Below are positions 24,819-54,769 of a DNA stretch of 64,000 bases, one piece after another. The stretch comes from a virus: UHGV virus genome UHGV-0134778. One strand, written 5' to 3'. Below the pieces are notes generated by a model. The model had not been told where the DNA came from. It searched no databases and saw nothing but the letters and a program-made list of their open reading frames with translations. Each line of letters begins with the position of its first letter. Positions within the stretch are counted from its first letter, which is position 1. The position numbers and the translations under genes are program-made.

Positions 24819-24827
24819 CGTTGGTTG

Positions 24828-25777: not shown

Positions 25778-25778
25778 T

Positions 25779-26199: not shown

Positions 26200-26319
26200 T
26201 TAAAAATTTAAGAAAAATTTTGCAAAACTGTTAGCGCTACTCATTAACATTTGCGCCAGGATGTACCCGACAACGCAAACGATAATAGTTACCTTTGTGT
26301 ATTGGCGTGTAGTGCTCAT
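26200..26319 (-). CDS. micro-protein, hydrophobic (39 aa)
   Basis: ATG after AAGGGGGC; lies in the leader of the transcript from 45-bp element copy 3; VTIIVCVVGYILAQML is a membrane segment. Confidence 0.35.
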   Translation of the reverse strand: MSTTRQYTKVTIIVCVVGYILAQMLMSSANSFAKFFLNF

Positions 26320-26354
26320 CTTAAAGCCCCCTTTTTTCGCTTAACTGAGATTAA

Positions 26355-26399
26355 TTTACTTTATTGATGGCCCTGGAGTCAAGGCCATCTAAAAATAAA
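26355..26399 (-). promoter_or_regulatory. 45-bp conserved promoter/operator element, copy 3
   Basis: Identical 45-mer immediately after the stop of 26401..26805 and upstream of micro-ORF 26200..26319. Confidence 0.5.
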
Positions 26400-26400
26400 C

Positions 26401-26805
26401 TTAGTAAGTTTTCAGTACTTTCCCGTCCAACCTGTCAAGCTGAATCTCGATAGCTGCAGAAAACCTATTGTACACCACGTCGCCCATGGAATCCAACCAG
26501 TCTATGACGTTATATACTTGCTCTTTGTTCTTGCAGGTCCGGATCCGTTTCATGATGTAAGCCGGATCAATATTGGTACTTTCGTTAGTGTTCCCCTGTA
26601 CCTGATTTGCCGTATTAGTTACATCTTTAATGGCCTTTACCACCACCTGGAAGGGCTTTAAGGTGCCTTTTGCGTTCATCTCACGCGCTTTTGCGGCGCG
26701 GTTGTTATATGTTACACAACGGCGGCAAATGTTCACCAAATGCATGTCAATAATTTTTTCATCGTTTGCCAGTTCGTTCATGATGCGGCGTACGTTCTTA
26801 TTCAT
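26401..26805 (-). CDS. hypothetical protein
   Basis: 134 aa; leader hairpin 26825-26843; RBS AAAGGAAAAAG. Confidence 0.5.
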   Translation of the reverse strand: MNKNVRRIMNELANDEKIIDMHLVNICRRCVTYNNRAAKAREMNAKGTLKPFQVVVKAIKDVTNTANQVQGNTNESTNIDPAYIMKRIRTCKNKEQVYNVIDWLDSMGDVVYNRFSAAIEIQLDRLDGKVLKTY

Positions 26806-26887
26806 GATCTTTTTCCTTTGTGTTGGCGGGAAACATTCCCGCCTTTTGTGACTAGTTTACTTGAATTTTGCAGCGTGTCAACAATTT

Positions 26888-27286
26888 TTATTCGTGGGCG
26901 CATGTTACAATGTGCTTTTTATAGCCCAGGTGGTTAGCAAGTGCCGACAAAAACTCTTCTTCATAGATCCAGCCGTTGGCAGTGATCCCCATAGCATTTA
27001 ATGCGCTCTCAAGTGCTGCATTAGCTTTATCGTAGCCGTGACCGCTCGCCTTCCCGCCAGTATAACCGTACTTATTGTTCTTGTTGTCGTGAATCCAAAA
27101 AACGCAGTATTGAGTGTTCCCGCTGGCGGCGGCATAATACCGGATCTCAGCTACTTCGTGCAAATTATTGTCATCGTCCAGGCCCACCAGATTATAAGCC
27201 TTGTAAAATCCACGATCACGGCGGCAGTTCTTGACATCAGAAAAAGAAAAGTCCGCATTATCAAAATTAAAGGTAGTGGTTTTCAT
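26888..27286 (-). CDS. hypothetical protein
   Basis: 132 aa; promoter 27319-27347 and RBS AAGAGGA. Confidence 0.5.
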   Translation of the reverse strand: MKTTTFNFDNADFSFSDVKNCRRDRGFYKAYNLVGLDDDNNLHEVAEIRYYAAASGNTQYCVFWIHDNKNNKYGYTGGKASGHGYDKANAALESALNAMGITANGWIYEEEFLSALANHLGYKKHIVTCAHE

Positions 27287-27318
27287 GATTTTATCCTCTT
27301 AGTGTCTTTTGTGCTTTT

Positions 27319-27347
27319 AGTGTATTTGGTGTCGGACTATATGTCAA
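27319..27347 (-). promoter_or_regulatory. sigma70-type promoter
   Basis: Minus strand TTGACA (27342-27347), 17 nt, TACACT (27319-27324). Confidence 0.5.
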
Positions 27348-27350
27348 TAC

Positions 27351-27548
27351 TTATTTTTTATTAAACCAGTGGTTGATCTGTCCTTTTGTCAGGGCGCAAC
27401 GATTAAGCTGTTGCCGGGTATAGCTCTGACCGCGACGGAATTTATAAAGGCCTTGCCCGTTGTTGATGGTTACGTCCACCTGGCAAATCATTTGATCGGT
27501 GACGGCCTGGCGAGTGTTGCGACGTACTTTAATTCCGTAGGCGTTCAT
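27351..27548 (-). CDS. hypothetical protein
   Basis: 65 aa; RBS AGAGAGGA. Confidence 0.45.
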   Translation of the reverse strand: MNAYGIKVRRNTRQAVTDQMICQVDVTINNGQGLYKFRRGQSYTRQQLNRCALTKGQINHWFNKK

Positions 27549-27966
27549 GATTTTTATCCTCTCTGTTAATTAGTGTGGTGTTGTTCACCTTGCGAGGATA
27601 AGAATAACAGAACTATCCGAGCTGTCAACCGTTAGTTAGAATTATTTTTTGGGCAGAATTCTCCAGCCGCCGCCACTGCCAGGTTAACCATCATTTTTTC
27701 GTACTCTTCTTTATGTTCCAACGCTCCCGCCATAGCCTTTTCAACCAGGGTGATAGCCTCAGCGTCATTAATCGCTACATTTCCAGGGGATCAAATTACC
27801 TTTCATTTTTGTACCTCCTCTTCAATTGTTACCTGCCCTGTAGCATAGGCCTACCAGGTTTGCAAGTTTTCACTCTCTCCTACCTGGTCAGTCAGGTCCT
27901 GCCAGGCTGGCCCCGCCAGGTTGCAGCGGTTGGTGCATTATGTTAGAAAAAATTTTTGAAGAAGTG

Positions 27967-27995
27967 TTGACAGCGGCCCCGCCAGGTGGCACAAT
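27967..27995 (+). promoter_or_regulatory. promoter-like element on the opposite strand to the flanking genes
   Basis: Perfect TTGACA (27967-27972), 17 nt, weak -10 CACAAT; followed ~35 nt later by the 17-nt motif at 28031-28047. Confidence 0.35.
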
Positions 27996-28030
27996 ATACC
28001 TATCGAAAGGACGGCAGGCACCGGTGACGG

Positions 28031-28047
28031 GGGAGACAACCACCGGG
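28031..28047 (+). repeat. 17-nt motif GGGAGACAA(C/T)CACCGGG, copy b
   Basis: Matches 28165-28181 and, in reverse complement, 19045-19061; each copy is 23-35 nt downstream of a promoter -10. Confidence 0.5.
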
Positions 28048-28110
28048 GATAGGCGCTGCATAAAATGAGAACGGTTATCATTATCATTTAAAAATTTATG
28101 CAAAAAATCC

Positions 28111-28141
28111 TTGCTTTCTTTGTCCTGTGTGATACTATAAT
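28111..28141 (+). promoter_or_regulatory. promoter-like element on the opposite strand to the flanking genes
   Basis: TTGCTT, then perfect TATAAT at 28136-28141 (19-nt spacer; alternative extended -10 TGATACTAT); followed 23 nt later by the 17-nt motif at 28165-28181. Confidence 0.35.
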
Positions 28142-28164
28142 AACAAGCCGGGGCAACAGGGGCC

Positions 28165-28181
28165 GGGAGACAATCACCGGG
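28165..28181 (+). repeat. 17-nt motif GGGAGACAA(C/T)CACCGGG, copy c
   Basis: GGGAGACAATCACCGGG; followed by GAGAATGATTATCATT, similar to the GAGAACGGTTATCATT after copy b. Confidence 0.5.
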
Positions 28182-28428
28182 GGTGCCCGTTATTCTGCAA
28201 ACGAGAATGATTATCATTCAAAATTCTAAATGAGAACTCCTCGCATTTAATAAATTTAATTAGCATGCTAATTACCCTCCGTAACAATTTCCTATAAAAC
28301 AATATCTCATAAAATATTCCCATATATAAATTTTAAAAATCCATTTCTGAAAACGAAAAATCGATTTCGTCCCCAAAAATTTTAGGTCGAGCGCCGGAAC
28401 GATTTCCAGAAAATCTGATTCAGAAAAC

Positions 28429-28511
28429 GAAAAACAGATCGAGTACTAAGAAATTTATCGAGAAAAATTTTCAGAAAATCAGGTATTTGAAATGAAAAAC
28501 AGATCGAGTAC
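28429..28511. repeat. tandem ~65-bp imperfect duplication containing an 18-bp perfect repeat
   Basis: GAAAAACAGATCGAGTAC at 28429-28446 and 28494-28511; units begin TTCCAGAAAATC (28404) and TTCAGAAAATC (28470); degenerate third copy near 28346. Confidence 0.55.
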
Positions 28512-28633
28512 CGAGAGAGATGTGCCGAAACTTTCTGATAGGTAATGGACTTATTGTTATAAAAGGTCAGAGGTAAGCTGGGAAAGTTCTGGTAGAAGGG
28601 TGAGAGTATGTGCGGAAAATCTGGAATAGTGAC

Positions 28634-28822
28634 TTAAAGTACGGTGCGAACGATAGAATGAGCAGCACAGCTTATCGTGCCTGTCTTGAAAAAATCCATT
28701 TTAGTTTTCGATCCATTTTCTGATTTTCTAAGAATTTTAAAATATCCGGCCAGGTGAAATATCAAAAGGAGGAAATCCATTTTAGAAATCCTCCTTATGT
28801 TTGATGTGCCAGGGATTTTCAA
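28634..28822 (-). CDS. questionable small ORF in a repeat-rich island
   Basis: 62-aa ORF with an internal AAGGAGG + ATG at 28779-28781 that would give a shorter product; overlaps direct repeats and a hairpin, so coding status is uncertain. Confidence 0.25.
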   Translation of the reverse strand: MKIPGTSNIRRISKMDFLLLIFHLAGYFKILRKSENGSKTKMDFFKTGTISCAAHSIVRTVL

Positions 28823-28825
28823 GTA

Positions 28826-29155
28826 TCAACTATCTTTGTTTTTAGGCTTGTACATGCGTAGAGGTATAGTCTTTGTAACATTCCATCTCCCCAACCCTTC
28901 CCAGTTCCAATTGTGAGCGTGATACCCGGTTATGCATGCACTGCTGGCGTGATCATAAGCATAAGAGAACGCTATGCGAACCAGGTGGGGCCAGTCTTTC
29001 CACGGCTGTGGCCCGTAAGCCTTTCTCCAACACCGACACAAACTAAATGTCTCAAGAATAGGCAGGATAACAAATCCATACACCACCACCAAGATGATCA
29101 GCGCAATGATTGTCAGGAATACATACCCTGCAGTTGAAATAATGATCTCTGTCAT
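28826..29155 (-). CDS. membrane protein
   Basis: N-terminal transmembrane segments (VFLTIIALIILVVVYGFVILPIL). Confidence 0.5.
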   Translation of the reverse strand: MTEIIISTAGYVFLTIIALIILVVVYGFVILPILETFSLCRCWRKAYGPQPWKDWPHLVRIAFSYAYDHASSACITGYHAHNWNWEGLGRWNVTKTIPLRMYKPKNKDS

Positions 29156-29355
29156 TTGTCATCCCCTTTCTTACGGATATAGATGTGAGAGCCTGCTTGT
29201 ACATAAATTTCCCGACCATCTTCTGCAAAGATGTGGAATACACGGTCGCCTTCGTATTCAATACGGGATATCTTCATAACGGTCTTCCCACCCGGGATGC
29301 GGATCTCATCACCAACAGCAATGTTCCATGCAGATTTAAGCTTAAACATCTGCAC
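29152..29355 (-). CDS. hypothetical protein
   Basis: 67 aa; ATGA overlap. Confidence 0.45.
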   Translation of the reverse strand: MQMFKLKSAWNIAVGDEIRIPGGKTVMKISRIEYEGDRVFHIFAEDGREIYVQAGSHIYIRKKGDDK

Positions 29356-29587
29356 CCTCCTTTGGGAGCTCTAACTCTGGCATAGCCATATACGCCACAA
29401 CAGGGTTGTAATCAAAGTAGAAATGACCGTTAATTATCCCAGTTTTGTGGGCATAGTCACCAGATCCCGCAAGAACAATTTCGCAAACTCCGAAATCCAC
29501 CTTGCCACTCTCATCTGCCATGGCTACAATATACTTTCCTAGAGGCATGTTTTTAACGCCGTCTACAAATGTCCACCCTTTGTTCAT
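29342..29587 (-). CDS. hypothetical protein
   Basis: 81-aa ORF. Confidence 0.5.
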   Translation of the reverse strand: MNKGWTFVDGVKNMPLGKYIVAMADESGKVDFGVCEIVLAGSGDYAHKTGIINGHFYFDYNPVVAYMAMPELELPKEGADV

Positions 29588-29607
29588 ACTTTATCTCCTG
29601 CACTTTC

Positions 29608-29940
29608 TTAAGGTAACCAGTAAACAATCTCGCCCTTCAGCTTCATGTCGTTTCCAACATAGATTTCCCAGCCATCCATCTTAGCAACTGTAGGCCCAAA
29701 GTCATCCGCACCCCTTACCTCTTTCCAGGCTCCGTAGTCAGGTTGCCAGATATAGAATCCACCTTCTTTGTCCCATGCTCCGTACACTACGTTTAACAGG
29801 TTTCCCATTGCAACAATGGTGGGCCGTGGGAATAATACATCTACAGATGCGCCACAATTTCGGGTATCTTTTAAGTTGCAATCCCAAAAGATGTCTGCCA
29901 GTGTGGCGGCGATAGCTTTACGTCTTTCTAATGTTACCAT
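29608..29940 (-). CDS. hypothetical protein
   Basis: 110-aa ORF. Confidence 0.5.
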   Translation of the reverse strand: MVTLERRKAIAATLADIFWDCNLKDTRNCGASVDVLFPRPTIVAMGNLLNVVYGAWDKEGGFYIWQPDYGAWKEVRGADDFGPTVAKMDGWEIYVGNDMKLKGEIVYWLP

Positions 29941-29950
29941 AGCACAATAC

Positions 29951-30142
29951 TCACTTGTTGTTAAGAAGTTCTAATGCTTTCTGTTTTACTTTATCAAGAT
30001 CTGTTGATTCAAAAACTGTGCGATATCCCCAACTTTGCCCATAGGAGTAACTGCAATCTCCGTAACACCATTGCTCAATTTGATAGTATTCAAGGAATGG
30101 GTGCTGTCTAACTATGATACCGTCTCGATTAAAAATTACCAT
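29951..30142 (-). CDS. hypothetical protein
   Basis: 63-aa ORF. Confidence 0.45.
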   Translation of the reverse strand: MVIFNRDGIIVRQHPFLEYYQIEQWCYGDCSYSYGQSWGYRTVFESTDLDKVKQKALELLNNK

Positions 30143-30205
30143 AATGTATCCCTCTCTGCTGGTTTATGTTTGTATTATACACCGCAGTTTTCAGATGTCA
30201 ATCTT

Positions 30206-30400
30206 TTACAGGTTACTCCAGTATAATCGGCATTTACATTTTGGGCAATGAGGTTCTTTTATGTAATAGCCGTCAGTCTTTGGAACACTTTTTGGTGCAG
30301 TTTTAAGATTGTACCGAGTAAAACACCGGAAGCATGTTACCTCTCCGACCTGTTGATCGTTGATCCACTCACCAGAGTAAAGCTCTTTCTTGTTTCTCAT
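30206..30400 (-). CDS. small zinc-ribbon-like protein
   Basis: CxxC...CxxC pattern (CFRCF...CPKCKC); start at the ATG after GGAGAG. Confidence 0.4.
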   Translation of the reverse strand: MRNKKELYSGEWINDQQVGEVTCFRCFTRYNLKTAPKSVPKTDGYYIKEPHCPKCKCRLYWSNL

Positions 30401-30402
30401 AA

Positions 30403-30597
30403 TTATCTCTCCAATCCTCTGCAATCTTCTACCAGAATCTCCAGCCAGAAAGCACACGGGAACACTTTGAGGATTGAATCTTTACTCGGTTCGGAAGTTC
30501 TTTTTCCATAGGGCAGGTAGAAATACCCTCCTGCAGATTCAAACATGGCTCCTTCTGTTGTATCTATCACAGCTAGAATTAAGATTTTAGTCTCCAT
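30403..30597 (-). CDS. hypothetical protein
   Basis: 64 aa; promoter 30627-30655 and RBS AGGGGAAC. Confidence 0.45.
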   Translation of the reverse strand: METKILILAVIDTTEGAMFESAGGYFYLPYGKRTSEPSKDSILKVFPCAFWLEILVEDCRGLER

Positions 30598-30626
30598 AGT
30601 GTTCCCCTGTCTTAGTCATTGTGGTG

Positions 30627-30655
30627 ACTATACCACCTCAAACTCCGGCTGTCAA
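30627..30655 (-). promoter_or_regulatory. sigma70-type promoter
   Basis: Minus strand TTGACA (30650-30655), 17 nt, TATAGT (30627-30632). Confidence 0.55.
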
Positions 30656-31110
30656 CACTCTTTGTACTCCACCACGATAATATCTATATCAAAAGTGGCA
30701 AGGTTAATAACGTCCTCCACGTGTCCCCACTTCAAGCCGCCTATGCCGCACCCAATCTTAGGTATGTAGAATGGTAAAGTCGATCTCTTGAATATCTCAT
30801 TTACTCGCTCAAAGCCTTTCAGAATTGAGAAATACTCAGCATTAGGTCCTGGGTAGAACTGAGTGTATAGATTGATTCCGTATACAATACCTTTCGGAGA
30901 TAAGTGCTCCCACCGAGAGAACGCTCCTAGCTTACTTAGGCAACCGTAGGTAGTCGTTTTGTCAGCCGCCAATGCTTGAGGGAACTCACGGGAAATTTGT
31001 TTTGCTACACCCTTACCCATTGTGTGGAAGCAGTTACAACCGTGGATCAGGTGACCAGCACCGCTCTTAAAAAGGGAGATTAGATCTCCCTCTACAGTAT
31101 CAATAATCAC
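30652..31110 (-). CDS. Macro-domain (ADP-ribose binding/processing) protein
   Basis: IVIIDTVEGDL..LIHGCNCF..GKGVAKQI...IPKIGCGIGG follows the Macro-domain motif order (GDIT-like strand, NAAN-like, GGGV-like, G[IV][FY]G-like). Start is uncertain: GTG at 31108-31110, ATG at 31189-31191 or track start 31209. Confidence 0.55.
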   Translation of the reverse strand: MIIDTVEGDLISLFKSGAGHLIHGCNCFHTMGKGVAKQISREFPQALAADKTTTYGCLSKLGAFSRWEHLSPKGIVYGINLYTQFYPGPNAEYFSILKGFERVNEIFKRSTLPFYIPKIGCGIGGLKWGHVEDVINLATFDIDIIVVEYKEC

Positions 31111-31525
31111 GATATGCCAGCTCCTCTTCCACAATTTCAAAAAACTCAGTCCAGCACTGTGGCATATTAGAGTTACCGAAGTGGCTTTCATAGTAAAGGT
31201 TCTCACCACTCGGAAGATAGAAATCTGTTACCTCGTAGAATCCACAATCGTCGCACTCACCTTCTTCAAACTTGGCCTCAACCTTAATACCGAGGAAGGT
31301 GAAAAGTTTATGAATATCTTCAGTTTCGAACTCCCAGTGAATGTTGTTTTCCGCATCGGTGTAGAACTGGATCAGCAGACCATTGTCCAGTTTACCAAAA
31401 TACTCTGTGAAGTAACTCCCTTCCCAGAAATCTTTATGACAAATAATATCCATGCGTTTGCCCATAATAATGGTGTGAGCGTTTTGGGCATCGTCACGAA
31501 TCAGTTTTGGCATTTCATAGATCAT
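31100..31525 (-). CDS. hypothetical acidic protein
   Basis: 141-aa ORF. Confidence 0.5.
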   Translation of the reverse strand: MIYEMPKLIRDDAQNAHTIIMGKRMDIICHKDFWEGSYFTEYFGKLDNGLLIQFYTDAENNIHWEFETEDIHKLFTFLGIKVEAKFEEGECDDCGFYEVTDFYLPSGENLYYESHFGNSNMPQCWTEFFEIVEEELAYRDY

Positions 31526-31593
31526 CTTAGTTCTCCGGGTTCAACAGGTGGTGGCGCTATAGGAAGATCATAAAACATGGCGATCACATTCTC

Positions 31594-31791
31594 TTACGCA
31601 GGAATTGCTTCAAACAGGCCGTTATCGATACCATCCTTCAAGTAAAGATTATACTCTATGTCAGTATCTGTGTAAAGGGCAGCATCTAGCATTCTATCTG
31701 TGAGTCCATCCATTGGGTGGAGAAACCACCACCCACGCCAGTCAAAGTAACAACCTGGTGCATCTTCTCTCACACGGATTCGATAAATCAT
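31594..31791 (-). CDS. hypothetical protein
   Basis: 65 aa; promoter 31863-31891 and RBS AGGAGG. Confidence 0.45.
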   Translation of the reverse strand: MIYRIRVREDAPGCYFDWRGWWFLHPMDGLTDRMLDAALYTDTDIEYNLYLKDGIDNGLFEAIPA

Positions 31792-45102: not shown

Positions 45103-45444
45103 CTACTCAAGGTCTTCAGAGTCAAGCTCAAAAAGAATCAAACTGTGCATGCCTGCAGAGAGATTAACACACCCTGCAACAATAAGGGTTTGATAGTAAG
45201 GTTCAGCACCCTCAATATCTTCGTTAAAATCCACAACAAGGTAGTCACCTTTGTTAAAGGTGTATTTGTCCGATGTAAACGCAAAACCTGCCCAGTCCCC
45301 TACTGCAGGATCTTTATCAGTCACCTTTGTTAGCAGTAGATCTTTTTCACGAGATCTTTTAGTAAAATCGTGAATCACAACATCCTTCTCTTCAGAAGTC
45401 GGATTGCCACACACGTAGTTAACGATATTTCTCCACAAACTCAT
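45103..45444 (-). CDS. hypothetical protein
   Basis: 113-aa ORF. Confidence 0.5.
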   Translation of the reverse strand: MSLWRNIVNYVCGNPTSEEKDVVIHDFTKRSREKDLLLTKVTDKDPAVGDWAGFAFTSDKYTFNKGDYLVVDFNEDIEGAEPYYQTLIVAGCVNLSAGMHSLILFELDSEDLE

Positions 45445-46811
45445 ACGTCCCCCTTTTCTGCTCTAGTTTCAAAATCTTTCCTGACTTTCTCGTCTAAGCC
45501 AGGGAAAGTTGTATTATAAAACTCTACGACTCTCGGGTCAACAATAATATCCACCTCTCTTAATGGACGCAACAAGTTTATTCCTTGTATCGTCTTAACC
45601 CGACTCAAGGCAACATACGTCATTCCGGGAGAGAAAGCTCCGTTCTTTCCGAGGTCTAGGTTGTAACAATCTAACGTAAGTCCTTGACTTTTATGCGATG
45701 TTACTGCGTACCCAGATTTCAAAGGAAGTTGCTCATAAGACCCGATCACAACCCTCTCTATGAACTTCTCCATCTTCCTTTCGGCAATATTGTACCTCTG
45801 GGAAGGTTTGTACTCGTTATTCTCCCACAATCTTGGCTCAATTTCAACCTGTGTTCCGTCTTCTAGCTCAACTACTACGGATTTGGTCTTGAATTTTACC
45901 ACTGTGGCACGTGTCCCGTTAACATAATACGGAACTTTGTGAGTAGGGTCAACATCGTTTGAGGTTATCATAACCTTCATCCCTATCTTCAGCCTCATTT
46001 CCTGCTCCACAGGTAGTGTGGAAGGGAACTTACCTTTCATTTTACCAATGTAGGTCTTCTCTGGGGCCTTGATGGCATCATAGAAACGTCTGTTCACCTC
46101 CTCTGCTTGCTTATTGGTGGCACAGATGGTCAAGGCATCTGTTGGGACACCACCATGATAGCAACGAGTGTTAAGCTCTGCTACAACCTCTTTTATGCGA
46201 CGACCTTCACGAACACAGTTCAACATTGTGGCGAAGCGAACAGATTCCTGACGGAACTGGTCTACTAAGGCTATGTTGTGAAGATTAAGATCCTCCCAAG
46301 ATTCTGTATAGCAACACAGGTCTGTGTGGTAGAAGTTGAAGTAGGCTTCTTTCTCCATAGAAGAGACAACTGGAGGTGCTTGGTAGAAATCTCCAAACAA
46401 TAACACCTGAATGCCTCCGAAAGGTTTGTCATTTTTCCGAAGAAAGCGGAGTTTTCTATCCATCTCTATGAACTTGTCAGCACGGATCATAGAGATTTCA
46501 TCGATAATCAGGATGGTAAATGCCTTGCTTTTCAGAGGCTTTGCTGTTTTTGCCCTTATTGCTGTCCAGTCTGACTCCATGCTCACACCTGCGGCAAGAT
46601 CGAAAGTTCGGTGCGCTGTTGCTCCATTAACGTTTAAAGCGGCTACCCCTGTCGGGGCAACCGTTATGCAAGAGTCTCCATACATGGACTGGATCATGTT
46701 GATAAGATATGTCTTCCCGGTTCCACCAGGTCCACTTACGAAGACATTCTCACCGCTCATGATTGCAACAAGGGCAGCATCTGTGCCTACATCGTACTGC
46801 CCTTTTTCCAT
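45441..46811 (-). CDS. Dda/RecD/Pif1-like superfamily 1 DNA helicase
   Basis: Walker A VSGPGGTGKTY, Walker B ILIIDEISM and C-terminal SF1 helicase motifs; 456 aa, similar in size to T4 Dda. Confidence 0.8.
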   Translation of the reverse strand: MEKGQYDVGTDAALVAIMSGENVFVSGPGGTGKTYLINMIQSMYGDSCITVAPTGVAALNVNGATAHRTFDLAAGVSMESDWTAIRAKTAKPLKSKAFTILIIDEISMIRADKFIEMDRKLRFLRKNDKPFGGIQVLLFGDFYQAPPVVSSMEKEAYFNFYHTDLCCYTESWEDLNLHNIALVDQFRQESVRFATMLNCVREGRRIKEVVAELNTRCYHGGVPTDALTICATNKQAEEVNRRFYDAIKAPEKTYIGKMKGKFPSTLPVEQEMRLKIGMKVMITSNDVDPTHKVPYYVNGTRATVVKFKTKSVVVELEDGTQVEIEPRLWENNEYKPSQRYNIAERKMEKFIERVVIGSYEQLPLKSGYAVTSHKSQGLTLDCYNLDLGKNGAFSPGMTYVALSRVKTIQGINLLRPLREVDIIVDPRVVEFYNTTFPGLDEKVRKDFETRAEKGDV

Positions 46812-48052
46812 TACGCCTCCTCGTAGATAATGTCGATAGTATTACCGTCGCGGTCAACCACGTACTCAATTGGGTCGCCATCTTTGCGCGATTCTGGAGC
46901 TACTACGATTTCGTAGCGGCATGCACGGCACTTGGCGCTGTTGTGTTGGTAAGGTACACTAACTACATCGGCAGGGTCAACCATAACCGTCATCACAGTT
47001 CCGTAGCTCTTTGCATACTCTTTGCTGGCACAGTGCAGGCCATAAGAGCATGCAGCTTCCGGATCATCCTCTACAAAGTTACGAGGCATGGATACAAAAG
47101 CCCCCTGGTATTGTGGGACTTTACCACTGTGCCAATCCACCCACTTGTCGCCGTTAAACTGAACCCCTTTGTAGCAAATGATTCGACCATCTTCTGCAAT
47201 CTGAATGTCGTTTGCCTGCATAAAATCGTAGAGCATGTTTACAGATTTTGCAGAAGGATTGCGTAGCAGGCGAACGAGGAATTTCACATAGCGGTCATCC
47301 AGTGTTCCGTCTGCATAATCTTTCTCAATTTTCTTTGCAATGGTGGATCGCATCTCTACACCGTAGTAGTAGAGCTTACCATCTTTCATGATCAGGTTGT
47401 CTGCAAGTGTGGTGAACTCATTCTTGCGTTCCAGCCAGACAAGGATTTCACCAATTGCCTCGTCATATTCCTGAACAGAGATATGGTCGAAGACTTTCTG
47501 GTAAACTTCCTCACTTTCACTGCGGCGAATTTCAAAAATACCTTCGTTGCAGGTGATCTGGAGGAGTTCCCCGCAAATAACCACCAAAGGCTCGATGCTT
47601 CGGGTCTGTTGCTGAGACACACTGCTCACCACCTCCAGCACCGGGTCTTTTACTTCTACTAAAGGTTCTTCTGACTTGATTGCTACCCCAGTGAACCCTA
47701 CACCGTGAACAACACACAGTGGATATACCACACCCCAACGTTTAACGGAACCTTCTCCTAAATCTAAGATCATGGCGTACTTACCGTTATCTTCCAGCCC
47801 ATATCGAAATAAACGGGCCTCTTCACGGGTTTCAAAATCCTCACGGGTGTAGCAGACGCTGTCACGGTCAGGATCGAACAACTCTGGGGCACCTACTGCC
47901 AGTGTCCAGGTTGTGTTACCTTTCTCAATAGCGCATGTGAAACCCTTCTTCTCAAGCTCTGCACGGCGGTCACGTGCTTCTTTACGAGTTTTGAAATGTT
48001 CGTAGATGAAAATCATCTTGGTCTCCTTATTTGATGTTATTCTTTGTATCAA
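46811..48052 (-). CDS. rIIB: rIIB-like protein
   Basis: C-terminal block FLVRLLRNPSAKSVNMLYDFMQANDIQIAEDG...HSGK...MPRNFVEDD...YGLHCASKEY...VVSVPYQHNSAKCRACRYE resembles my recollection of T4 rIIB; lies directly downstream of rIIA on the same strand. Confidence 0.65.
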   Translation of the reverse strand: MIQRITSNKETKMIFIYEHFKTRKEARDRRAELEKKGFTCAIEKGNTTWTLAVGAPELFDPDRDSVCYTREDFETREEARLFRYGLEDNGKYAMILDLGEGSVKRWGVVYPLCVVHGVGFTGVAIKSEEPLVEVKDPVLEVVSSVSQQQTRSIEPLVVICGELLQITCNEGIFEIRRSESEEVYQKVFDHISVQEYDEAIGEILVWLERKNEFTTLADNLIMKDGKLYYYGVEMRSTIAKKIEKDYADGTLDDRYVKFLVRLLRNPSAKSVNMLYDFMQANDIQIAEDGRIICYKGVQFNGDKWVDWHSGKVPQYQGAFVSMPRNFVEDDPEAACSYGLHCASKEYAKSYGTVMTVMVDPADVVSVPYQHNSAKCRACRYEIVVAPESRKDGDPIEYVVDRDGNTIDIIYEEA

Positions 48053-50009
48053 TCAGTTCACGGTATTCAATCATAGCAGGAGTGTCCCAATATTTCAAGC
48101 CTACATGCTTCAAAAGTGGATATTTCTTTTCCAATCTTGCAATATAGGCCTTCCCGCACTTAACCCGGTTGGCGATTAAGATTTTGGCACGATGATTTAG
48201 CTCACCGTACTTCCACGTGGTGCTACCTTCCCACTTGTGGAAATGTGGCCGATAACTTCCAAAATCCTGCATGGGGATAATTTTACCTAACTGTCTGTAC
48301 AGGCTGTCATATGAAGTTTCATTTGCTGCGCGAGTTAGTAAGAATTTCCAAGCATCCTCTTTCAACAAATGTTCCACATTCTTCTCTGTAACATATTGGC
48401 AATCAGGATCAGTCCAAAGCAGACGAGATTCCGACACCAGGTACAGATCTTCCCCTTCAGGAATCTGGAGTGCCGCACGCACACGGTCATAATCTTGCTG
48501 GTAGATGTTGCTCATCTGCCCTAGCCAACAACTTCCGCGTTGGATATCCCCCTCATACGGTATGCAGTGCTTAATCTTCCTGAACTCTGCCTTAGTAATA
48601 CGCTCACGCCGGAAGTAACCATCCTTCTCAAGTTTTTTAACCCAATAGCCTGGTTCGTAACGGGTTTTGGTTTCACCTTTCTTCGTAGGTCGGCGTGGAA
48701 GCTCCGATAACAATTTGACCGTATCTGCAAAAAACGGATGGTGTGCCGCCTCTTTAAACTCTTTCACCAGATCCGTGTTACGGCAATAGAAAACGTTGCG
48801 TCCGGTAATCTCGCTTAAGTAGTTACACTTATTCCGGTTATATTTGCCGTCTCCGTCGTTAAATACTAAATAAACTCCCCGTAAGAATTCTACCTTTCCG
48901 TAGCAGGCGTAACCTATGCGGCCTTTATTTAAGCCGCCAGCGAAGATCTCGCAGTCCCCCAAATTTCCTAGCCCTGTTTCTTCCCAGCGGTCATACATAA
49001 AATTCTTACCGAAGATGTGCCCGAACACTCCACTGTTCTTCATCATCTCGCGTGCTTCTGAGGATGTTTTTGCTGTCTCCAGTTCTGCAACAACTTCTGC
49101 TCCACGAAGGCGAATGCCTTCTTTGACAAAAGCTTCCAAACGCTCTTGGAATCCACCATCGTCGTGACCTTCTATGGTCCATTCACGCCCTGGGTTAATA
49201 TTGCAATCTCCGATAGGGATCTCTACACAAATTGCAGGATAATCTATTAGTGTCTCCAGGAACTTAGAACGGTAAGGTTGGTGACCCATTACCACACGAC
49301 TCTCGTCAGAGCTGGTATAACCCTTCAGGATGGTCATCTTCCAACCATCTTTTTCATAATAATACTGCGCCTCTACTTTGTCTCCCTCCAGCATCTTGCT
49401 CGTCATCGGGTCGGTGACAGTGAACGGAAATTTTGCATAGCGCAGGCATGATGCAATAGCGGTGCGATATTTCAGAACATGCTCTTTCTTAACATGAAAC
49501 TGAACTTTTACCCCGTTGTGCTCTTCAGTCTTCCGCTCACGGATCTTGGTGACATTTGGGATACCCTGGTCCAAGAACAATAGGTATGTGCTTTCCACAC
49601 CGTTGTGCACACTGATTACATCGAAAGTGTCCACCATGCTGAACGGGGCCTTTGAACCAACACCTTTATTGCCTACCAGAGCGTTGCTGTTGCGCTTGGT
49701 CGACTCACCGAGGTTCATGAAAGTGTTACGGACCATCTCTTCTGACATGCCTAATCCAACGTCCTGCACAAAGAAGTATGGTTCAAGGTCTGTAGGAGAG
49801 TGAATGATGATCGGTACATCACCTCGTCCAGACTCAACATGTGAGTCCACAGCATTGAAGATCGGTTCACGGCAGCTTGCCAGTACCTTATCTTCATAAA
49901 TCCCTTTGATGATTAGCCCAAAAGTCTCTTTGTTCAGAGAAATTGATCCCCTGGTTACCTCCATATTCCCAGTTAGCACCGCTTTAGTTTCATTGCTGTT
50001 TACAATCAT
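48027..50009 (-). CDS. rIIA: rIIA-like protein (GHKL-type ATPase fold)
   Basis: LASCREPIFNAVDSH, FFVQDVGLGMS and VGNKGVGSKAPFSMVDTF correspond to the conserved N-terminal ATPase-like blocks recalled from T4 rIIA. Confidence 0.8.
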   Translation of the reverse strand: MIVNSNETKAVLTGNMEVTRGSISLNKETFGLIIKGIYEDKVLASCREPIFNAVDSHVESGRGDVPIIIHSPTDLEPYFFVQDVGLGMSEEMVRNTFMNLGESTKRNSNALVGNKGVGSKAPFSMVDTFDVISVHNGVESTYLLFLDQGIPNVTKIRERKTEEHNGVKVQFHVKKEHVLKYRTAIASCLRYAKFPFTVTDPMTSKMLEGDKVEAQYYYEKDGWKMTILKGYTSSDESRVVMGHQPYRSKFLETLIDYPAICVEIPIGDCNINPGREWTIEGHDDGGFQERLEAFVKEGIRLRGAEVVAELETAKTSSEAREMMKNSGVFGHIFGKNFMYDRWEETGLGNLGDCEIFAGGLNKGRIGYACYGKVEFLRGVYLVFNDGDGKYNRNKCNYLSEITGRNVFYCRNTDLVKEFKEAAHHPFFADTVKLLSELPRRPTKKGETKTRYEPGYWVKKLEKDGYFRRERITKAEFRKIKHCIPYEGDIQRGSCWLGQMSNIYQQDYDRVRAALQIPEGEDLYLVSESRLLWTDPDCQYVTEKNVEHLLKEDAWKFLLTRAANETSYDSLYRQLGKIIPMQDFGSYRPHFHKWEGSTTWKYGELNHRAKILIANRVKCGKAYIARLEKKYPLLKHVGLKYWDTPAMIEYRELIDTKNNIK

Positions 50010-50506
50010 TTATTGCGCTCCTTGTAGTAGATATGGCTCCCGAATTGAGCTGTCCTCTGCATCTTTTTTGCCCATTTCGGTCGTACTTTTGTTGTATGGT
50101 AGTGTGTTGCTCCGCCTGTTATATCCATAGCCATGTATGCAACATGGTTGTTATTATAGACCTTTAGAAGCATCTTTGCAAGACTTTTAGCGTGATCCCA
50201 TGAATCTTTTTCTGTCACCTTAAAAGTTTTGCCGTGGTTTGTCCACGAAAACTGGTTAGGTTGGTAGACAATCTTTCTTATAGTGTCTGGGTATTTGGGG
50301 TGAGATTTCCTGTTTAGTGTGGCAAATCCGGATGCCAGCATACCCATCGTGCCATCCCCTCTAGCCTCCCTGTAGATATTGCATGCTAGAATGTTTTCCT
50401 TAGTATCCGACGGCTTGCAAGTGTGATATACTTTTTGTTTTGGTGCTGCAACAACAGGCAGCGATAAAAATGCGCTCAAAATAATAGCAAAGATTTTAAT
50501 TTTCAC
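50006..50506 (-). CDS. secreted SleB-type cell wall hydrolase (candidate endolysin)
   Basis: Signal peptide MKIKIFAIILSAFLSLPVVAAP, then NIYREARGDG...LNR...IVYQPNQFSW as in the SleB/Hydrolase_2 family. Confidence 0.6.
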   Translation of the reverse strand: MKIKIFAIILSAFLSLPVVAAPKQKVYHTCKPSDTKENILACNIYREARGDGTMGMLASGFATLNRKSHPKYPDTIRKIVYQPNQFSWTNHGKTFKVTEKDSWDHAKSLAKMLLKVYNNNHVAYMAMDITGGATHYHTTKVRPKWAKKMQRTAQFGSHIYYKERNK

Positions 50507-50555
50507 AATAGCTCCAAATAGAAAATCCCCGCCGAAGCGGGGTGTGTCTTAGAAA

Positions 50556-50936
50556 TTAATCGTAGTGTGCCAAAATCTCTCCATCGTTGCAAGTCCCCTC
50601 TACGAAGTTGTGAAGATTCATGCATTCATCTTGATAGAAGAATTTACCGCTTTTCAGCCGTAGACCAAACAACTCCGCATCTCCACGATGGCAAGCCTCT
50701 ACAAGTTCATAGATTTCATACGGTAATTCCCCATCGTCATGGAAGAACCCCGCTTTATCGTTGACATAGATGAAGAAATAGTCACTGCTGTCGCAAGCGT
50801 CCAGTATTTTAAACCAGATTTCATCCACATCTTTTTCTCGGATATCGATCACACAAGCGGAGCTGCATTCGTACTCCTTCTCCGGCTCCTCGGTCAATAC
50901 CACCAAGTAGTTTCCCCGCTTACCTACTTTAGCCAT
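50556..50936 (-). CDS. hypothetical acidic protein
   Basis: 126-aa ORF. Confidence 0.5.
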   Translation of the reverse strand: MAKVGKRGNYLVVLTEEPEKEYECSSACVIDIREKDVDEIWFKILDACDSSDYFFIYVNDKAGFFHDDGELPYEIYELVEACHRGDAELFGLRLKSGKFFYQDECMNLHNFVEGTCNDGEILAHYD

Positions 50937-54627: not shown

Positions 54628-54667
54628 GCGTAAGTGCTCCTATGTTAGTTTTCTTTTGAATGGGTGC

Positions 54668-54696
54668 ACTATATCGTGGATTTAGAGTAAAGTCAA
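54668..54696 (-). promoter_or_regulatory. sigma70-type promoter (leftward arm of a divergent pair)
   Basis: Minus strand TTGACT (54691-54696), 17 nt, TATAGT (54668-54673). Confidence 0.55.
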
Positions 54697-54709
54697 CACG
54701 TTTTTCAGG

Positions 54710-54738
54710 TTGACATCTTCTCAGGCACTTGGTAAGAT
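54710..54738 (+). promoter_or_regulatory. sigma70-type promoter (rightward arm of a divergent pair)
   Basis: TTGACA (54710-54715), 17 nt, TAAGAT (54733-54738). Confidence 0.55.
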
Positions 54739-54769
54739 TTCTCCACCCACAGAGAACAAGAGACAACTC

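What the first reader, a model, noticed from the sequence alone, without database searches (positions are those of the whole stretch)
50006..50506. Secreted SleB-type cell wall hydrolase beside rIIA: candidate signal-peptide endolysin without an obvious holin neighbour
The protein has a cleavable-looking signal peptide and the SleB/Hydrolase_2 signature. No small holin-like membrane protein is adjacent; its neighbours are rIIA and an acidic 126-aa protein. Secreted endolysins usually depend on membrane depolarisation for activation, and rIIA/rIIB are linked to lysis timing in T4. The juxtaposition may reflect a lysis-control module.
Basis: partly seen in the sequence, partly recalled or inferred. 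Interest (0 to 1): 0.5.

Follow-up and report, generated by a model that had tools for sequence, protein, structure and literature searches.

The report
Exported second wall-cutting enzyme of rV5-like phage
This gene encodes a known but functionally untested exported cell-wall-cutting enzyme (gp2) of rV5-like E. coli phages; it is an extra enzyme, not the phage's main lysis enzyme, and its position beside rIIA looks like an accident of gene order.

Summary
Window 50006..50506 (- strand) encodes a 166-aa protein with a Sec-type cleavable signal peptide and one SleB/CwlJ-type (Pfam Hydrolase_2) domain with its catalytic Glu intact. It lies between a 126-aa acidic protein and rIIA/rIIB, and no holin-like ORF is adjacent or embedded.

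The window comes from a Vequintavirus (rV5-like coliphage), and the gene is rV5 gp2. It is annotated as "cell wall hydrolase/SleB/endolysin" in over 100 GenBank records.

- These phages have a canonical cytoplasmic lambda-R-type endolysin (rV5 gp89 = LysECP26), which has been purified and shown to be active.
- They also have an i-/o-spanin pair beside the terminase. Both sets of genes lie outside the window.
- A putative holin (gp129 homologue) lies at 5378..5581.
- The link to rIIA is not conserved. In every sister genus examined, a small 2-TMD holin-like gene directly follows the SleB-like gene. rIIA/rIIB are present in some genera and absent in others.

Homologues in several other large virulent phages also carry export signals, coexist with a canonical endolysin, and often sit behind a terminator hairpin with a GTG or TTG start.

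Best reading: a low-dose, holin-independent, periplasmic auxiliary muralytic enzyme. The gene is already known and interest is modest.

The parts
50006..50506 (-). Gene for the exported SleB/CwlJ-type (Hydrolase_2) peptidoglycan hydrolase, the homologue of rV5 gp2. It encodes a 166-aa precursor. The predicted mature protein is 146 aa, 16.9 kDa, pI about 9.95, with two Cys (C30, C42).
   Evidence: rV5 Table S3 lists gene 2 as 'cell wall hydrolase', 166 aa, pI 10.0
50447..50506 (-). Codons 1-20, the Sec-type signal peptide MKIKIFAIILSAFLSLPVVA. Cleavage by signal peptidase I is predicted between A20 and A21. Cleavage after A21 would put Pro at +1, which is disfavoured (established knowledge).
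   Evidence: Heuristic hydropathy and -3/-1 rule. pLDDT is low for residues 1-20. Equivalent signal peptides with AXA sites occur in all Vequintavirinae, Stephanstirmvirinae and T5-like homologues examined, even though their sequences differ.
50366..50368 (-). Codon of E47, the predicted catalytic glutamate in the motif Y-R-E-A-R-G.
   Evidence: It aligns with the Glu of YGESRGE in SleB 4F55/4FET. It is invariant in a 16-sequence alignment of phage and metagenomic homologues.
50516..50542 (-). GC-rich hairpin CCCCGC-TTCG-GCGGGG followed by ATTTTCTATTT. It resembles an intrinsic terminator and sits 5' of the hydrolase ribosome-binding site (GGAG at 50512-50515) and the GTG start.
   Evidence: MFE -15.6 kcal/mol, z = -2.7; unique in the window. 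Comparable hairpins lie just upstream of the homologous gene in 12 of the 18 loci examined. phiTE and PAK_P4 have a terminator annotated there.
50153..50181 (-). Sigma-70-like promoter match TTGCAA-17-TATAAT inside the hydrolase coding region, about 145 nt upstream of the rIIA start. It could be a promoter for rIIA/rIIB. This is a consensus match only.
   Evidence: 10 of 12 positions. The number of promoter-like matches in the region does not exceed that in shuffled sequence, so the evidence is weak.
48027..50009 (-). rIIA homologue, 660 aa, with a GHKL-type ATPase domain. Its ATG overlaps the hydrolase stop codon (ATGA).
46811..48052 (-). rIIB homologue. The mechanical ORF has a TTG start at 48052, whereas ECP26 annotates a 401-aa product starting at MIFIYEHF. 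The N-terminus gives a weak SPOR-like match.
50556..50936 (-). Upstream neighbour, the homologue of rV5 gp3. It is a 126-aa acidic protein (pI 4.4) of unknown function (PHROG 12370; rV5 Table S3 cites T5.083 as a homologue). It is not linked to the hydrolase in other phage groups.
5378..5581 (+). A 67-aa protein with two transmembrane segments and a basic C-terminus, homologous to rV5 gp129 ('putative holin'). It lies 44 kb from the hydrolase and is the only holin candidate proposed for this genus.
   Evidence: PHROG 10061, unknown function; found only in the 116 Vequintavirus-type records

Best explanation
The ORF is gp2 of an rV5-like (Vequintavirus) coliphage. It is a single-domain SleB/CwlJ-family peptidoglycan hydrolase made with a cleavable Sec signal peptide.

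Shown here:
- The domain, the fold and the conserved catalytic Glu are present.
- An export signal is present and is conserved across distant homologues.
- A separate canonical endolysin and spanins are encoded elsewhere in the genome.
- The gene lies in the leftward replication and host-takeover operon that runs from the bidirectional promoter region near 54.6-54.7 kb.
- A terminator-like hairpin and a GTG start lie immediately in front of the gene.

Inferred:
- The protein is exported by Sec independently of any holin. Signal peptidase I cleaves it to give a soluble, basic periplasmic enzyme of about 17 kDa, probably with a C30-C42 disulfide.
- It cuts glycan strands. By homology with SleB it would be a lytic transglycosylase.
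- Expression is deliberately kept low, through read-through of the hairpin and a weak start codon, and it begins before the late phase.
- It therefore acts as an auxiliary enzyme that weakens or remodels the wall. It is tolerated at low dose, and it secures or speeds breakdown of the sacculus when the main system (holin, gp89 endolysin and spanins) fires.
- Its contact with rIIA is specific to this genus. It results from the absence here of the small 2-TMD gene that follows the hydrolase in every sister genus examined.
For: Identity:
- Pfam Hydrolase_2 and PHROG 938 matches.
- Sequence and fold matches to SleB only.
- E47 and eight other residues are invariant.

Export:
- All 18 phage homologues examined have a hydrophobic N-terminus. 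Textbook AXA sites are present in the Vequintavirinae, Stephanstirmvirinae and T5-like members.
- Of the 147 closest cluster representatives that start with Met, 132 have a hydrophobic N-terminus.
- The CB7 paper reports a signal peptide and toxicity in E. coli for the Certrevirus orthologue (PMC7344957).

Not the main endolysin:
- LysECP26 (rV5 gp89) has been characterised.
- LysECP26, the 68-aa membrane ORF and the spanins are present in ECP26 and in OX460980.1 but not in the window.
- The phage LL12 genome announcement names gp90 as the endolysin and gp65/gp66 as the spanins.
- The same pairing of a canonical endolysin with a Hydrolase_2 protein occurs in Phapecoctavirus, in the Stenotrophomonas phage Ps15, a relative of Mendera, and in CB7.

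Not late-specific, and low dose:
[quoted passage not shown] The window has matching promoter-like sites at 54696 (-) and 54710 (+).
- Phi92-like phages and Vibrio phage F95 have a near-consensus sigma-70 promoter directly upstream of their homologue.
- PAK_P3 gp151, a homologue of about 35% identity, is transcribed at 3.5 min and at 13 min. The log2 fold change is 0.62 and not significant, and read counts are 3-9 times lower than for the gene upstream of the hairpin.
- A hairpin lies upstream in 12 of 18 loci, and the start codon is GTG or TTG in 8 of 18.

Not in virions:
- rV5 gp2 is not marked as having MS evidence.
- CB7_83 is not among the virion proteins named in the passages I read.
Against: - No experiment on this protein exists in the library searched. 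Muralytic activity, signal cleavage, timing and dosage in a Vequintavirus are all inferred.
- The only expression data come from a distant homologue in a Pseudomonas phage.
- The hairpin could be an RNA-stability or processing element rather than an attenuator.
- The conserved, translationally coupled 2-TMD gene in sister genera looks like an endolysin-holin pair. That favours a more direct role in lysis than 'auxiliary'.
- A soluble periplasmic muralytic enzyme made early should be dangerous to the infected cell. How its activity is restrained is unexplained.
Confidence: 0.55

Rival explanations
1. It is a true secreted endolysin belonging to a second lysis module. The enzyme accumulates in the periplasm in a restrained state. 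It is unleashed when a small 2-TMD (pin)holin-like protein depolarises the membrane, as with Lys44 of phage fOg44 or the SAR-endolysin/pinholin systems. In this genus the partner gene has been lost from the locus, and its role is taken by gp129 or by the main holin.
For: - In six sister lineages a 51-80-aa protein with two hydrophobic segments directly follows the hydrolase gene. In four of the six it also has a charged C-terminus. In phiTE, Kashira and A73 the genes overlap by 4 nt.
- The CB7 authors call CB7_82 a strong class II holin candidate.
- The gp129-like 2-TMD protein is detectable only in the genus that lacks the adjacent gene.
- The orthologue is toxic when expressed in E. coli (data not shown in that paper).
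- No holin has been positively identified for these phages.
Against: - The phage already has an active cytoplasmic endolysin that needs a hole-forming holin.
- The gene sits in an early or middle operon, not a late cassette.
- Outside Vequintavirinae the homologues have no membrane-protein neighbour.
- The PAK_P3 homologue is transcribed from 3.5 min.
- The 2-TMD proteins have no holin family match; their PHROG families are 'unknown' or 'membrane protein'.
- To my knowledge, no PMF-gating mechanism is known for a soluble periplasmic enzyme in Gram-negative bacteria.
Confidence: 0.25
2. One reading: the hydrolase and rIIA/rIIB form a functional lysis-control module in which the rII proteins tune activation of the secreted enzyme.
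For: - The hydrolase stop codon and the rIIA start codon overlap (ATGA), which suggests translational coupling.
- The order hydrolase, (2-TMD), rIIA, rIIB is kept in Vequintavirus, Mydovirus, Seunavirus and Henunavirus.
- The rIIB N-terminus has a weak SPOR-like (peptidoglycan-binding fold) match.
Against: - Certrevirus, Kashira and A73 keep the hydrolase and the 2-TMD gene at the same place but have no rIIA/rIIB there.
- In the phi92-like, phAPEC8-like, T5-like, PAK_P-like and Mendera-like loci examined, no rII match lay within the 4-5 kb fetched on either side of the homologue.
- A promoter-like site inside the hydrolase gene could uncouple rIIA transcription.
- rIIB has no export signal, so a SPOR-like domain would stay in the cytoplasm.
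Confidence: 0.07
3. It has a non-lytic role. One option is a host-takeover or auxiliary metabolic enzyme that releases muropeptides or remodels the sacculus during infection, as proposed for PAK_P3 gp151. Another is an envelope modification that hinders superinfection.
For: - PAK_P3 infection causes cell-wall precursors to accumulate, and the authors propose gp151 as the cause.
- The gene lies among early, replication and nucleotide-metabolism genes in all groups examined.
- The PAK_P3 homologue is expressed from the early time point.
- The expression signals point to low output.
Against: - This is purely correlative, with no assay behind it.
- It does not explain the holin-like partner in Vequintavirinae.
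- It overlaps with the best explanation and differs mainly in whether the pay-off comes at lysis.
Confidence: 0.15
4. It is a virion-associated lysin used to penetrate the wall during DNA injection.
For: Hydrolase_2 domains occur at the N-terminus of very large DarB-like or polyvalent injected proteins in some phages (hits H60 and H63; PHROG 938 has a 2185-position profile; PMC5512222 is listed).
Against: - A Sec signal peptide is incompatible with cytoplasmic virion assembly.
- rV5 Table S3 does not mark gp2 as having MS evidence.
- The orthologue CB7_83 is not among the virion proteins named in the passages of the CB7 paper that I read.
- The gene lies outside the structural module.
Confidence: 0.02

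Closest known systems
rV5 gp2 and its orthologues (FV3 'SleB', ECP26 ECP26DNA_00024 'cell wall hydrolase', CB7_83, CR3_087, PVP-SE1 SleB)
   Same: It is the same gene. Amino-acid identity is 99-100% to many Vequintavirus records and 45-55% to the other Vequintavirinae genera. Genome position, length and signal peptide are the same.
   Different: Nothing of substance differs. In sister genera a 2-TMD gene follows the hydrolase, whereas here rIIA follows directly.
Bacillus SleB / CwlJ spore-cortex lytic enzymes (PDB 4F55, 4FET; Pfam PF07486)
   Same: It shares the catalytic-domain fold and the catalytic Glu motif. Like CwlJ, it is a single-domain protein.
   Different: - It has no N-terminal PG_binding_1 domain, which SleB has.
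- The host has no muramic-delta-lactam substrate and no spore context.
- Sequence identity is only 19-24%.
- It is exported to a Gram-negative periplasm.
Signal-peptide (secreted) endolysins such as Lys44 of Oenococcus phage fOg44, and SAR endolysins (P1 Lyz, phage 21 R). These examples are from my own knowledge of the literature.
   Same: It is a muralytic enzyme that reaches the wall through Sec without needing holin holes. In sister genera it is paired with a small 2-TMD protein, as SAR endolysins are paired with pinholins.
   Different: - It is not the phage's only or main endolysin.
- It does not sit in a late lysis cassette.
- The N-terminus looks like a cleavable signal, with a strongly hydrophobic core, no Gly and an AXA site. 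It does not look like a Gly/Ala-rich SAR anchor.
- The host is Gram-negative, where I know of no example of a fully secreted soluble endolysin.
LysECP26 / rV5 gp89 (lambda R-type lysozyme-like endolysin of the same phages)
   Same: It is the other peptidoglycan-degrading enzyme of the same genome and is of similar size (156 aa).
   Different: It has a different fold (Phage_lysozyme), no signal peptide and a different locus, and its lytic activity has been demonstrated.
PAK_P3 gp151, PAK_P4 gp154, the T5-like 'cell wall hydrolase' and Mendera gp205
   Same: These are Hydrolase_2 proteins with an N-terminal export or anchor segment. They occur in large virulent phages that also carry a canonical endolysin, and their genes lie among early or metabolic genes, often behind a terminator.
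   Different: They are 33-40% identical. The PAK_P-type N-terminus looks like an uncleaved anchor. They have no rII neighbours and no 2-TMD partner.

Membership tests
Pfam Hydrolase_2 (SleB/CwlJ catalytic-domain superfamily) | Significant match to PF07486 above the gathering score | tested here: met
   70.4 bits against a cutoff of 27, E=2.1e-19, covering profile positions 2-100 of 100
Pfam Hydrolase_2 (SleB/CwlJ catalytic-domain superfamily) | Conserved catalytic glutamate in the N-terminal helix motif (Y-x-E-[AS]-R-G) | tested here: met
   E47 aligns with the Glu of YGESRGE in 4F55/4FET. It is invariant in 16 homologues. The motif is present in 148 of 150 representatives.
Pfam Hydrolase_2 (SleB/CwlJ catalytic-domain superfamily) | SleB catalytic-domain fold | tested here: met
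   The AF2 model has pLDDT 88.6. The only Foldseek PDB hits with E<=1e-3 are 4F55 and 4FET (TMt 0.72-0.79, rmsd 2.6-3.0 A).
SleB proper (germination-specific lytic transglycosylase) | N-terminal peptidoglycan-binding domain, dependence on muramic-delta-lactam cortex and a YpeB partner | tested here: not met
   Hydrolase_2 is the only Pfam domain found, and the N-terminal 50 residues are a signal peptide plus a short linker. Substrate specificity cannot be tested here.
Lytic transglycosylase activity | Formation of 1,6-anhydro-MurNAc products | not testable with these tools
   Inferred only from homology to SleB (descriptions of 4FET/4F55).
Sec-exported protein with a cleavable signal peptide | Positive n-region, hydrophobic h-region of about 10-16 residues, helix breaker, and small residues at -3/-1 | tested here: met
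   The sequence is MKIKIFAIILSAFLSLPVVA|APK. The tests were hydropathy and the -3/-1 rule only, with no SignalP. The feature is conserved in homologues whose signal-peptide sequences differ. A signal peptide is reported for the orthologue CB7_83.
SAR (signal-anchor-release) endolysin | Uncleaved, weakly hydrophobic, Gly/Ala/Ser-rich N-terminal TMD; usually partnered with a pinholin | tested here: not met
   The h-region IFAIILSAFLSLPVVAA has no Gly, and 10 of its 17 residues are I, L, F or V. An AXA-type site follows. This is a composition heuristic, not an experiment.
Secreted signal-peptide endolysin (Lys44 type) | It is the phage's lysis endolysin, encoded with a holin in the lysis cassette and expressed late | tested here: not met
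   A separate, active endolysin exists elsewhere. No holin-like ORF is adjacent or embedded. The gene lies in the gene 10-to-1 leftward unit. Caveat: sister genera do have an adjacent 2-TMD gene.
Canonical holin-endolysin-spanin lysis cassette | Clustered holin, endolysin and Rz/Rz1-type spanin genes | tested here: not met
   In ECP26 the endolysin lies at 87.9 kb, the spanins at 77.1-77.8 kb and the hydrolase at 17.4 kb. The putative holin gp129 lies at window 5378..5581.
Virion-associated peptidoglycan hydrolase | Present in purified virions and encoded in the structural module | tested here: not met
   rV5 Table S3 does not mark it as a structural protein with MS evidence. CB7_83 is not among the virion proteins named in the CB7 passages I read. 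The gene lies outside the structural region.
   Linkage is found only in four Vequintavirinae genera, and direct adjacency only in Vequintavirus. It is absent in Certrevirus, Kashira and A73, and from the fetched flanks of the Stephanstirmvirinae, T5-like, Pakpunavirus and Menderavirus loci.

The most novel reading that the evidence does not exclude
The SleB-like enzyme and the small 2-TMD protein that follows it in sister genera (relocated or replaced by gp129 in rV5-like phages) form a second lysis pathway that depends on Sec rather than on holin holes. [quoted passage not shown] It would run in parallel with the classical holin, cytoplasmic endolysin and spanin pathway. It could also explain why no convincing holin has been found for Vequintavirinae.
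Probability: 0.15. Interest if true: 0.6.

Novelty: already known. Interest (0 to 1): 0.3.

Why it matters
The gene itself is a routinely annotated feature of a well-sampled phage genus, so the finding adds no new entity.

The broader point is modest but real. Several unrelated lineages of large virulent phages of Gram-negative bacteria carry a second, exported SleB-type muralytic enzyme alongside a canonical endolysin. These lineages are Vequintavirinae, Stephanstirmvirinae, T5-like phages, Pakpunavirus/Nankokuvirus and Menderavirus. The gene lies outside any lysis cassette, and its expression signals suggest low, non-late production.

Nobody has tested what this enzyme does. Vequintaviruses are also widely used in phage-therapy and biocontrol cocktails, yet their holin is still unidentified. 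Knowing whether gp2 contributes to lysis timing, to wall remodelling or to muropeptide release would fill a gap in a lysis pathway that otherwise follows the textbook. It would also show whether these proteins are useful as enzybiotics.

Tried and rejected
- I looked for a hidden holin next to or embedded in the gene. There are no ORFs of 20 aa or more with a hydrophobic segment on the coding strand in 49700-50560. The 74-aa hydrophobic ORF at 49906..50130 lies on the opposite strand, inside coding sequence, and I treated it as spurious.
- I searched the window and the ECP26 genome for a homologue of the Hena1 77-aa membrane protein. Only chance-level hits appeared (E>4).
- I tested whether the acidic 126-aa neighbour (gp3) is a conserved partner, such as an inhibitor or chaperone, of the hydrolase. 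It is absent from the flanks of all the other homologue loci fetched up to that point, so I rejected the idea.
- I tested whether the 2-TMD proteins of the different genera are homologous to each other, to gp129 or to the 68-aa ORF after LysECP26. Only the Seunavirus and Mydovirus proteins are related (blastp; PHROGs). Whether gp129 is a relocated orthologue therefore stays open.
- I found no holin family match for any candidate. Their PHROG families are annotated 'unknown' or 'membrane protein'.
- A literature search for Vequintavirus transcriptomics found nothing usable. A search for an experimentally characterised phage SleB-like enzyme also found nothing.
- The search for homologous proteins returned only 10 relatives. 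The exhaustive representative search was needed to see the size of the family.
- My first script failed because locus files are bundled, several loci to a file. This did not affect any result.


Full report
**1. What is there**

The window is a piece of a Vequintavirus (rV5-like) coliphage genome. The 4.2 kb around the finding is 100% identical to OX460980.1 (Vequintavirinae sp. EcoIv14a_Aya) and 99.7% identical to phage vB_EcoM-ECP26. It is 90-95% identical to about 100 other rV5-like records. The whole window is collinear with ECP26 positions about 104873..136993 followed by 1..31632.

- It matches Pfam Hydrolase_2 (PF07486) at E=2.1e-19 and PHROG 938 at E=1.7e-27.
- It matches the catalytic domains of Bacillus SleB (4F55, 4FET) by sequence. 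Its Y-R-E47-A-R-G motif lies on the SleB Y-G-E-S-R-G motif.
- An AlphaFold2 model has mean pLDDT 88.6. Its only significant matches in the PDB are those two SleB entries, with TM 0.72-0.79 relative to the target.
- In an alignment of 16 phage and metagenomic homologues, E47 and eight other positions are invariant.

**2. The signal peptide**

The N-terminus MKIKIFAIILSAFLSLPVVA|APKQK has two lysines, a 16-residue strongly hydrophobic core, and a Pro followed by small residues at -3/-1. Cleavage after A20 fits the rule. Cleavage after A21 would put Pro at +1, which signal peptidase I disfavours (established knowledge). No SignalP was available, so this rests on heuristics.

Three further observations support it.
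- The model is disordered over residues 1-20 and confident from residue 21 on.
- Every phage homologue I extracted has a hydrophobic N-terminus, although the sequences are unrelated. The Vequintavirinae, Stephanstirmvirinae and T5-like members have textbook sites such as ...PVLA|KD...PAMA|TE...PALA|KE and ...NSHA|TY.
- An exhaustive search finds 11,334 cluster representatives at E<=1e-3. Of the closest 147 that start with Met, 132 have a hydrophobic N-terminal segment.

Export is therefore the rule for this family. The mature protein would be 146 aa with pI about 9.95. It would have exactly two cysteines, C30 and C42, which are conserved in the Vequintavirinae and Stephanstirmvirinae group. 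That fits a periplasmic disulfide, which is an inference. The Certrevirus CB7 paper had already noted that the orthologue CB7_83 has a signal peptide, is conserved in all Vequintavirinae genera and is toxic when expressed in E. coli (PMC7344957).

**3. Neighbours**

Downstream lie rIIA (48027..50009, PHROG 612, E=2e-123), rIIB (46811..48052) and a Dda/Pif1-like helicase (45441..46811). Upstream lie a 126-aa protein of pI 4.4 (50556..50936) and a MoxR-like ATPase. The hydrolase TGA overlaps the rIIA ATG (ATGA).

No ORF of 20 aa or more with a membrane-like segment lies beside or inside the gene on the coding strand.

**4. Is it the endolysin?**

Probably not the main one. In ECP26 a 156-aa lambda-R-type lysozyme (LysECP26, 98% identical to rV5 gp89) is encoded at 87949..88419. 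It is followed by a 68-aa ORF with a hydrophobic N-terminus, and i-/o-spanins lie at 77080..77762 beside the terminase.
- LysECP26 has been purified and lyses 29 of 29 Gram-negative strains after the outer membrane is permeabilised (PMC9728275).
- The rV5 genome paper names gp89 as the lysin and proposes gp129, a 2-TMD protein, as the holin (PMC3606486).
- The LL12 genome announcement names the endolysin and spanins and states that the holin could not be identified (PMC6658697).
- The record identical to the window also carries the lysozyme (93.6% identity), the 68-aa ORF and both spanins. None of them lies in the window.
- The gp129 homologue does lie in the window, at 5378..5581 (+), 44 kb away.

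**5. Is the rIIA contact meaningful?**

I compared 18 loci from other phages.

Within Vequintavirinae the backbone 'hydrolase ... Dda-like helicase' is conserved, but what lies between the two genes varies.
- Mydovirus (KB57, AV124): hydrolase, then an unannotated 51-aa 2-TMD ORF, then rIIA, rIIB and the helicase.
- Seunavirus (KE22, FENT2): hydrolase, then a 57-aa 2-TMD ORF, then rIIA.
- Henunavirus (Hena1): hydrolase, then a 77-aa 2-TMD ORF, then rIIA, rIIB and the helicase.
- Certrevirus (phiTE; CB7 according to the paper): hydrolase, then a 65-aa 2-TMD 'membrane protein', then the helicase, with no rII genes. CR9 is the exception: it has a 61-aa protein without transmembrane segments.
- Kashira and A73: hydrolase, then an 80-aa or 70-aa 2-TMD ORF, then the helicase.

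In phiTE, Kashira and A73 the small gene overlaps the hydrolase stop codon by 4 nt. The small proteins all have two hydrophobic segments. Those of Seunavirus, Mydovirus, Kashira and A73 also have a charged C-terminus. The CB7 authors call theirs a strong class II holin candidate.

Only Vequintavirus lacks this gene, and there the 4-nt overlap is with rIIA instead. Outside the subfamily (phi92-like and phAPEC8-like phages, T5-like phages, PAK_P4 and G1, Mendera, a jumbo Pseudomonas phage, a Vibrio phage and an Aeromonas phage), the homologue has neither an rII neighbour nor a membrane-protein neighbour within the flanks fetched.

The conserved partner is therefore the small membrane protein, not rII. 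Direct contact with rIIA is a derived feature of one genus.

The gp129-like protein is detectable by tblastn only in the 116 Vequintavirus-type records. Its distribution complements that of the adjacent 2-TMD gene. This could reflect relocation or replacement. However, the 2-TMD proteins show no detectable similarity across genera except between Seunavirus and Mydovirus, so that remains speculation.

**6. Expression signals**

A hairpin CCCCGC-TTCG-GCGGGG followed by a T-rich run lies 20 nt upstream of the start codon. It is one of the strongest terminator-like sites in 12 kb, with an MFE of -15.6 kcal/mol and z=-2.7. There is no room for a promoter between it and the ribosome-binding site.
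- Comparable GC hairpins sit just upstream of the homologous gene in KB57, AV124, Hena1, CR9, phiTE (annotated terminator), Kashira, A73, VivaForever, ETEC-TG, PAK_P4 (annotated terminator) and Mendera, as well as in the window. That is 12 of the 18 loci examined; G1 adds a similar hairpin but without a T-run.
- In the two Stephanstirmvirinae phages a near-consensus extended -10 sigma-70 promoter (TTGCAA-17-TACAAT or TATACT) lies between the hairpin and the gene. Vibrio phage F95 has TTGACA-16-TATACT.
- The annotated start codon is GTG or TTG in 8 of 18 loci. In FENT2 and 2L372X the annotated N-termini look doubtful, so those start codons are uncertain.
[quoted passage not shown] The window has matching promoter-like sites at 54696 (-) and 54710 (+).
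- A promoter-like TTGCAA-17-TATAAT inside the hydrolase gene (50181..50153) could serve rIIA. This is weak evidence, because such matches are no more frequent here than in shuffled sequence.

The only expression data I found are for PAK_P3 gp151, a homologue of about 35% identity. It is transcribed at both 3.5 and 13 min. The log2 fold change is 0.62 and not significant, whereas structural genes rise by 5-13 log2 units. Its read counts are 3-9 times lower than those of the gene upstream of the hairpin (S5 Table of PMC4933390). The authors of that paper suggested gp151 as the cause of the cell-wall precursor accumulation they saw.

Together these observations point to production that is not confined to the late phase and that is kept low. 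For the window phage itself this is an inference.

**7. Best explanation and rivals**

I think the most likely reading (0.55) is as follows. gp2 is an auxiliary periplasmic muralytic enzyme. It is exported by Sec, processed and made in small amounts from before the late phase. It nicks or remodels the sacculus so that the canonical system (holin, gp89 and spanins) finishes the job quickly.

The main rival (0.25) is that it is a real secreted endolysin of a second lysis module. Its membrane partner would be adjacent in sister genera and elsewhere (gp129?) here. The translationally coupled 2-TMD gene is the strongest argument for this reading. The arguments against are the early-operon position, the presence of an active cytoplasmic endolysin, and the lack of such a partner outside the subfamily.

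The remaining rivals are these.
- A non-lytic metabolic or exclusion role (0.15) overlaps with the best explanation.
- A virion-associated lysin (0.02) is contradicted by the signal peptide and by the proteomics.

**8. Comparison with known systems and novelty**

The protein is a member of the Hydrolase_2 superfamily: the domain, the catalytic Glu and the fold were all tested and met. It is not an orthologue of SleB proper, because it lacks the peptidoglycan-binding domain and the spore context. It is closer to CwlJ in being a single domain.

It works like a secreted endolysin in how it reaches the wall. It fails the other defining features of Lys44-type or SAR endolysins.
- It is not the main endolysin.
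- It is not in a late cassette.
- It has no adjacent holin in this genus.
- Its N-terminus is not SAR-like.

The gene is already in the databases and the literature as rV5 gp2 'cell wall hydrolase'. Its signal peptide was noted in 2020. Two observations I did not see described in the papers I read: the terminator and weak-start architecture recurs across distant phage groups, and the adjacent 2-TMD gene and gp129 have complementary distributions.

I rate the finding as already known, with interest 0.3.

Noticed in passing
window 5378..6477 (+): This stretch holds a run of small membrane proteins. The 67-aa 2-TMD homologue of rV5 gp129 ('putative holin') lies at 5378..5581. A 39-aa 1-TMD ORF lies at 5728..5847. 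A 153-aa virion structural protein with a C-terminal hydrophobic segment lies at 6016..6477. By tblastn the gp129-like protein occurs only in the 116 Vequintavirus-type records. It diverges much faster (62-87% identity) than the hydrolase (95-99%).
   Followed up: partly
window 46811..48052 (-), rIIB residues about 20-54: The N-terminus of rIIB gives a SPOR-domain match (PF05036). The score is 19.2 bits in the full protein and 22.1 bits, above the gathering score of 21, when the N-terminal 152 aa are scanned alone. One GenBank record annotates the gene as 'SPOR domain-containing protein'. SPOR domains bind denuded peptidoglycan, but rIIB has no export signal, so the meaning is unclear.
   Followed up: partly
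L004:5536-5691 (KB57) and L023 about 1943-2098 (AV124): In Mydovirus genomes a 51-aa ORF lies between the SleB-like gene and rIIA and is not annotated. Its sequence in KB57 is MKKFLVIFVCITPLCVILSLSQPMYWEQICGAYAIGMATAAFRLNINNCKK. It is homologous to the annotated 57-aa Seunavirus protein (PHROG 24442, E=3.8e-13).
   Followed up: yes
L021:1432-1962 (Salmonella phage KE22): The SleB-like gene is annotated as a 127-aa product starting at an internal Met, which removes the signal peptide. tblastn shows that the full-length reading frame, matching residues 1-164 of the window protein, is present. In FENT2 the opposite error is likely: a 190-aa product is annotated from an upstream TTG.
   Followed up: partly
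window 50153..50181 (-): A sigma-70-like promoter match (TTGCAA-17-TATAAT) lies inside the hydrolase coding region, about 145 nt upstream of rIIA. The same TTGCAA -35 hexamer appears in the promoters in front of the SleB-like gene of phi92-like and phAPEC8-like phages.
   Followed up: no
window 54630..54740: This is a divergent promoter region between the leftward 299-aa ORF (ends at 54627) and the rightward 349-aa ORF (starts at 54710; annotated as an anti-sigma factor in ECP26, whose rV5 counterpart gp11 is described as Srd-like). Promoter-like sites TTGACT-17-TATAGT (-) and TTGACA-17-TAAGAT (+) are present. This corresponds to the bidirectional promoters described between rV5 genes 10 and 11.
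   Followed up: partly
L002:38483-38689 (ECP26, outside the window): A 68-aa ORF lies immediately downstream of the LysECP26 endolysin gene. It has a hydrophobic, Cys-containing N-terminus (MKDFLLAILFMAACLACGVVFAG...) that could be a lipoprotein signal or a single TMD. It belongs to PHROG 4641 (unknown function) and is 98.5% conserved in OX460980.1. It may be part of the lysis machinery, but it is not an obvious holin.
   Followed up: partly
(phage collection): Between 16 and 23 records named 'Campylobacter phage' (host C. jejuni) are 90-99% identical to E. coli rV5-like phages over this region. The host assignment of those records looks doubtful.
   Followed up: no
window 45441..46811 (-) compared with L001:12811-14179: The Dda/Pif1-like helicase is one intact 456-aa ORF in the window. 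In ECP26 it is annotated as two CDSs (12811..13368 and 13448..14179). This suggests a frameshift or a sequencing error in that record.
   Followed up: no
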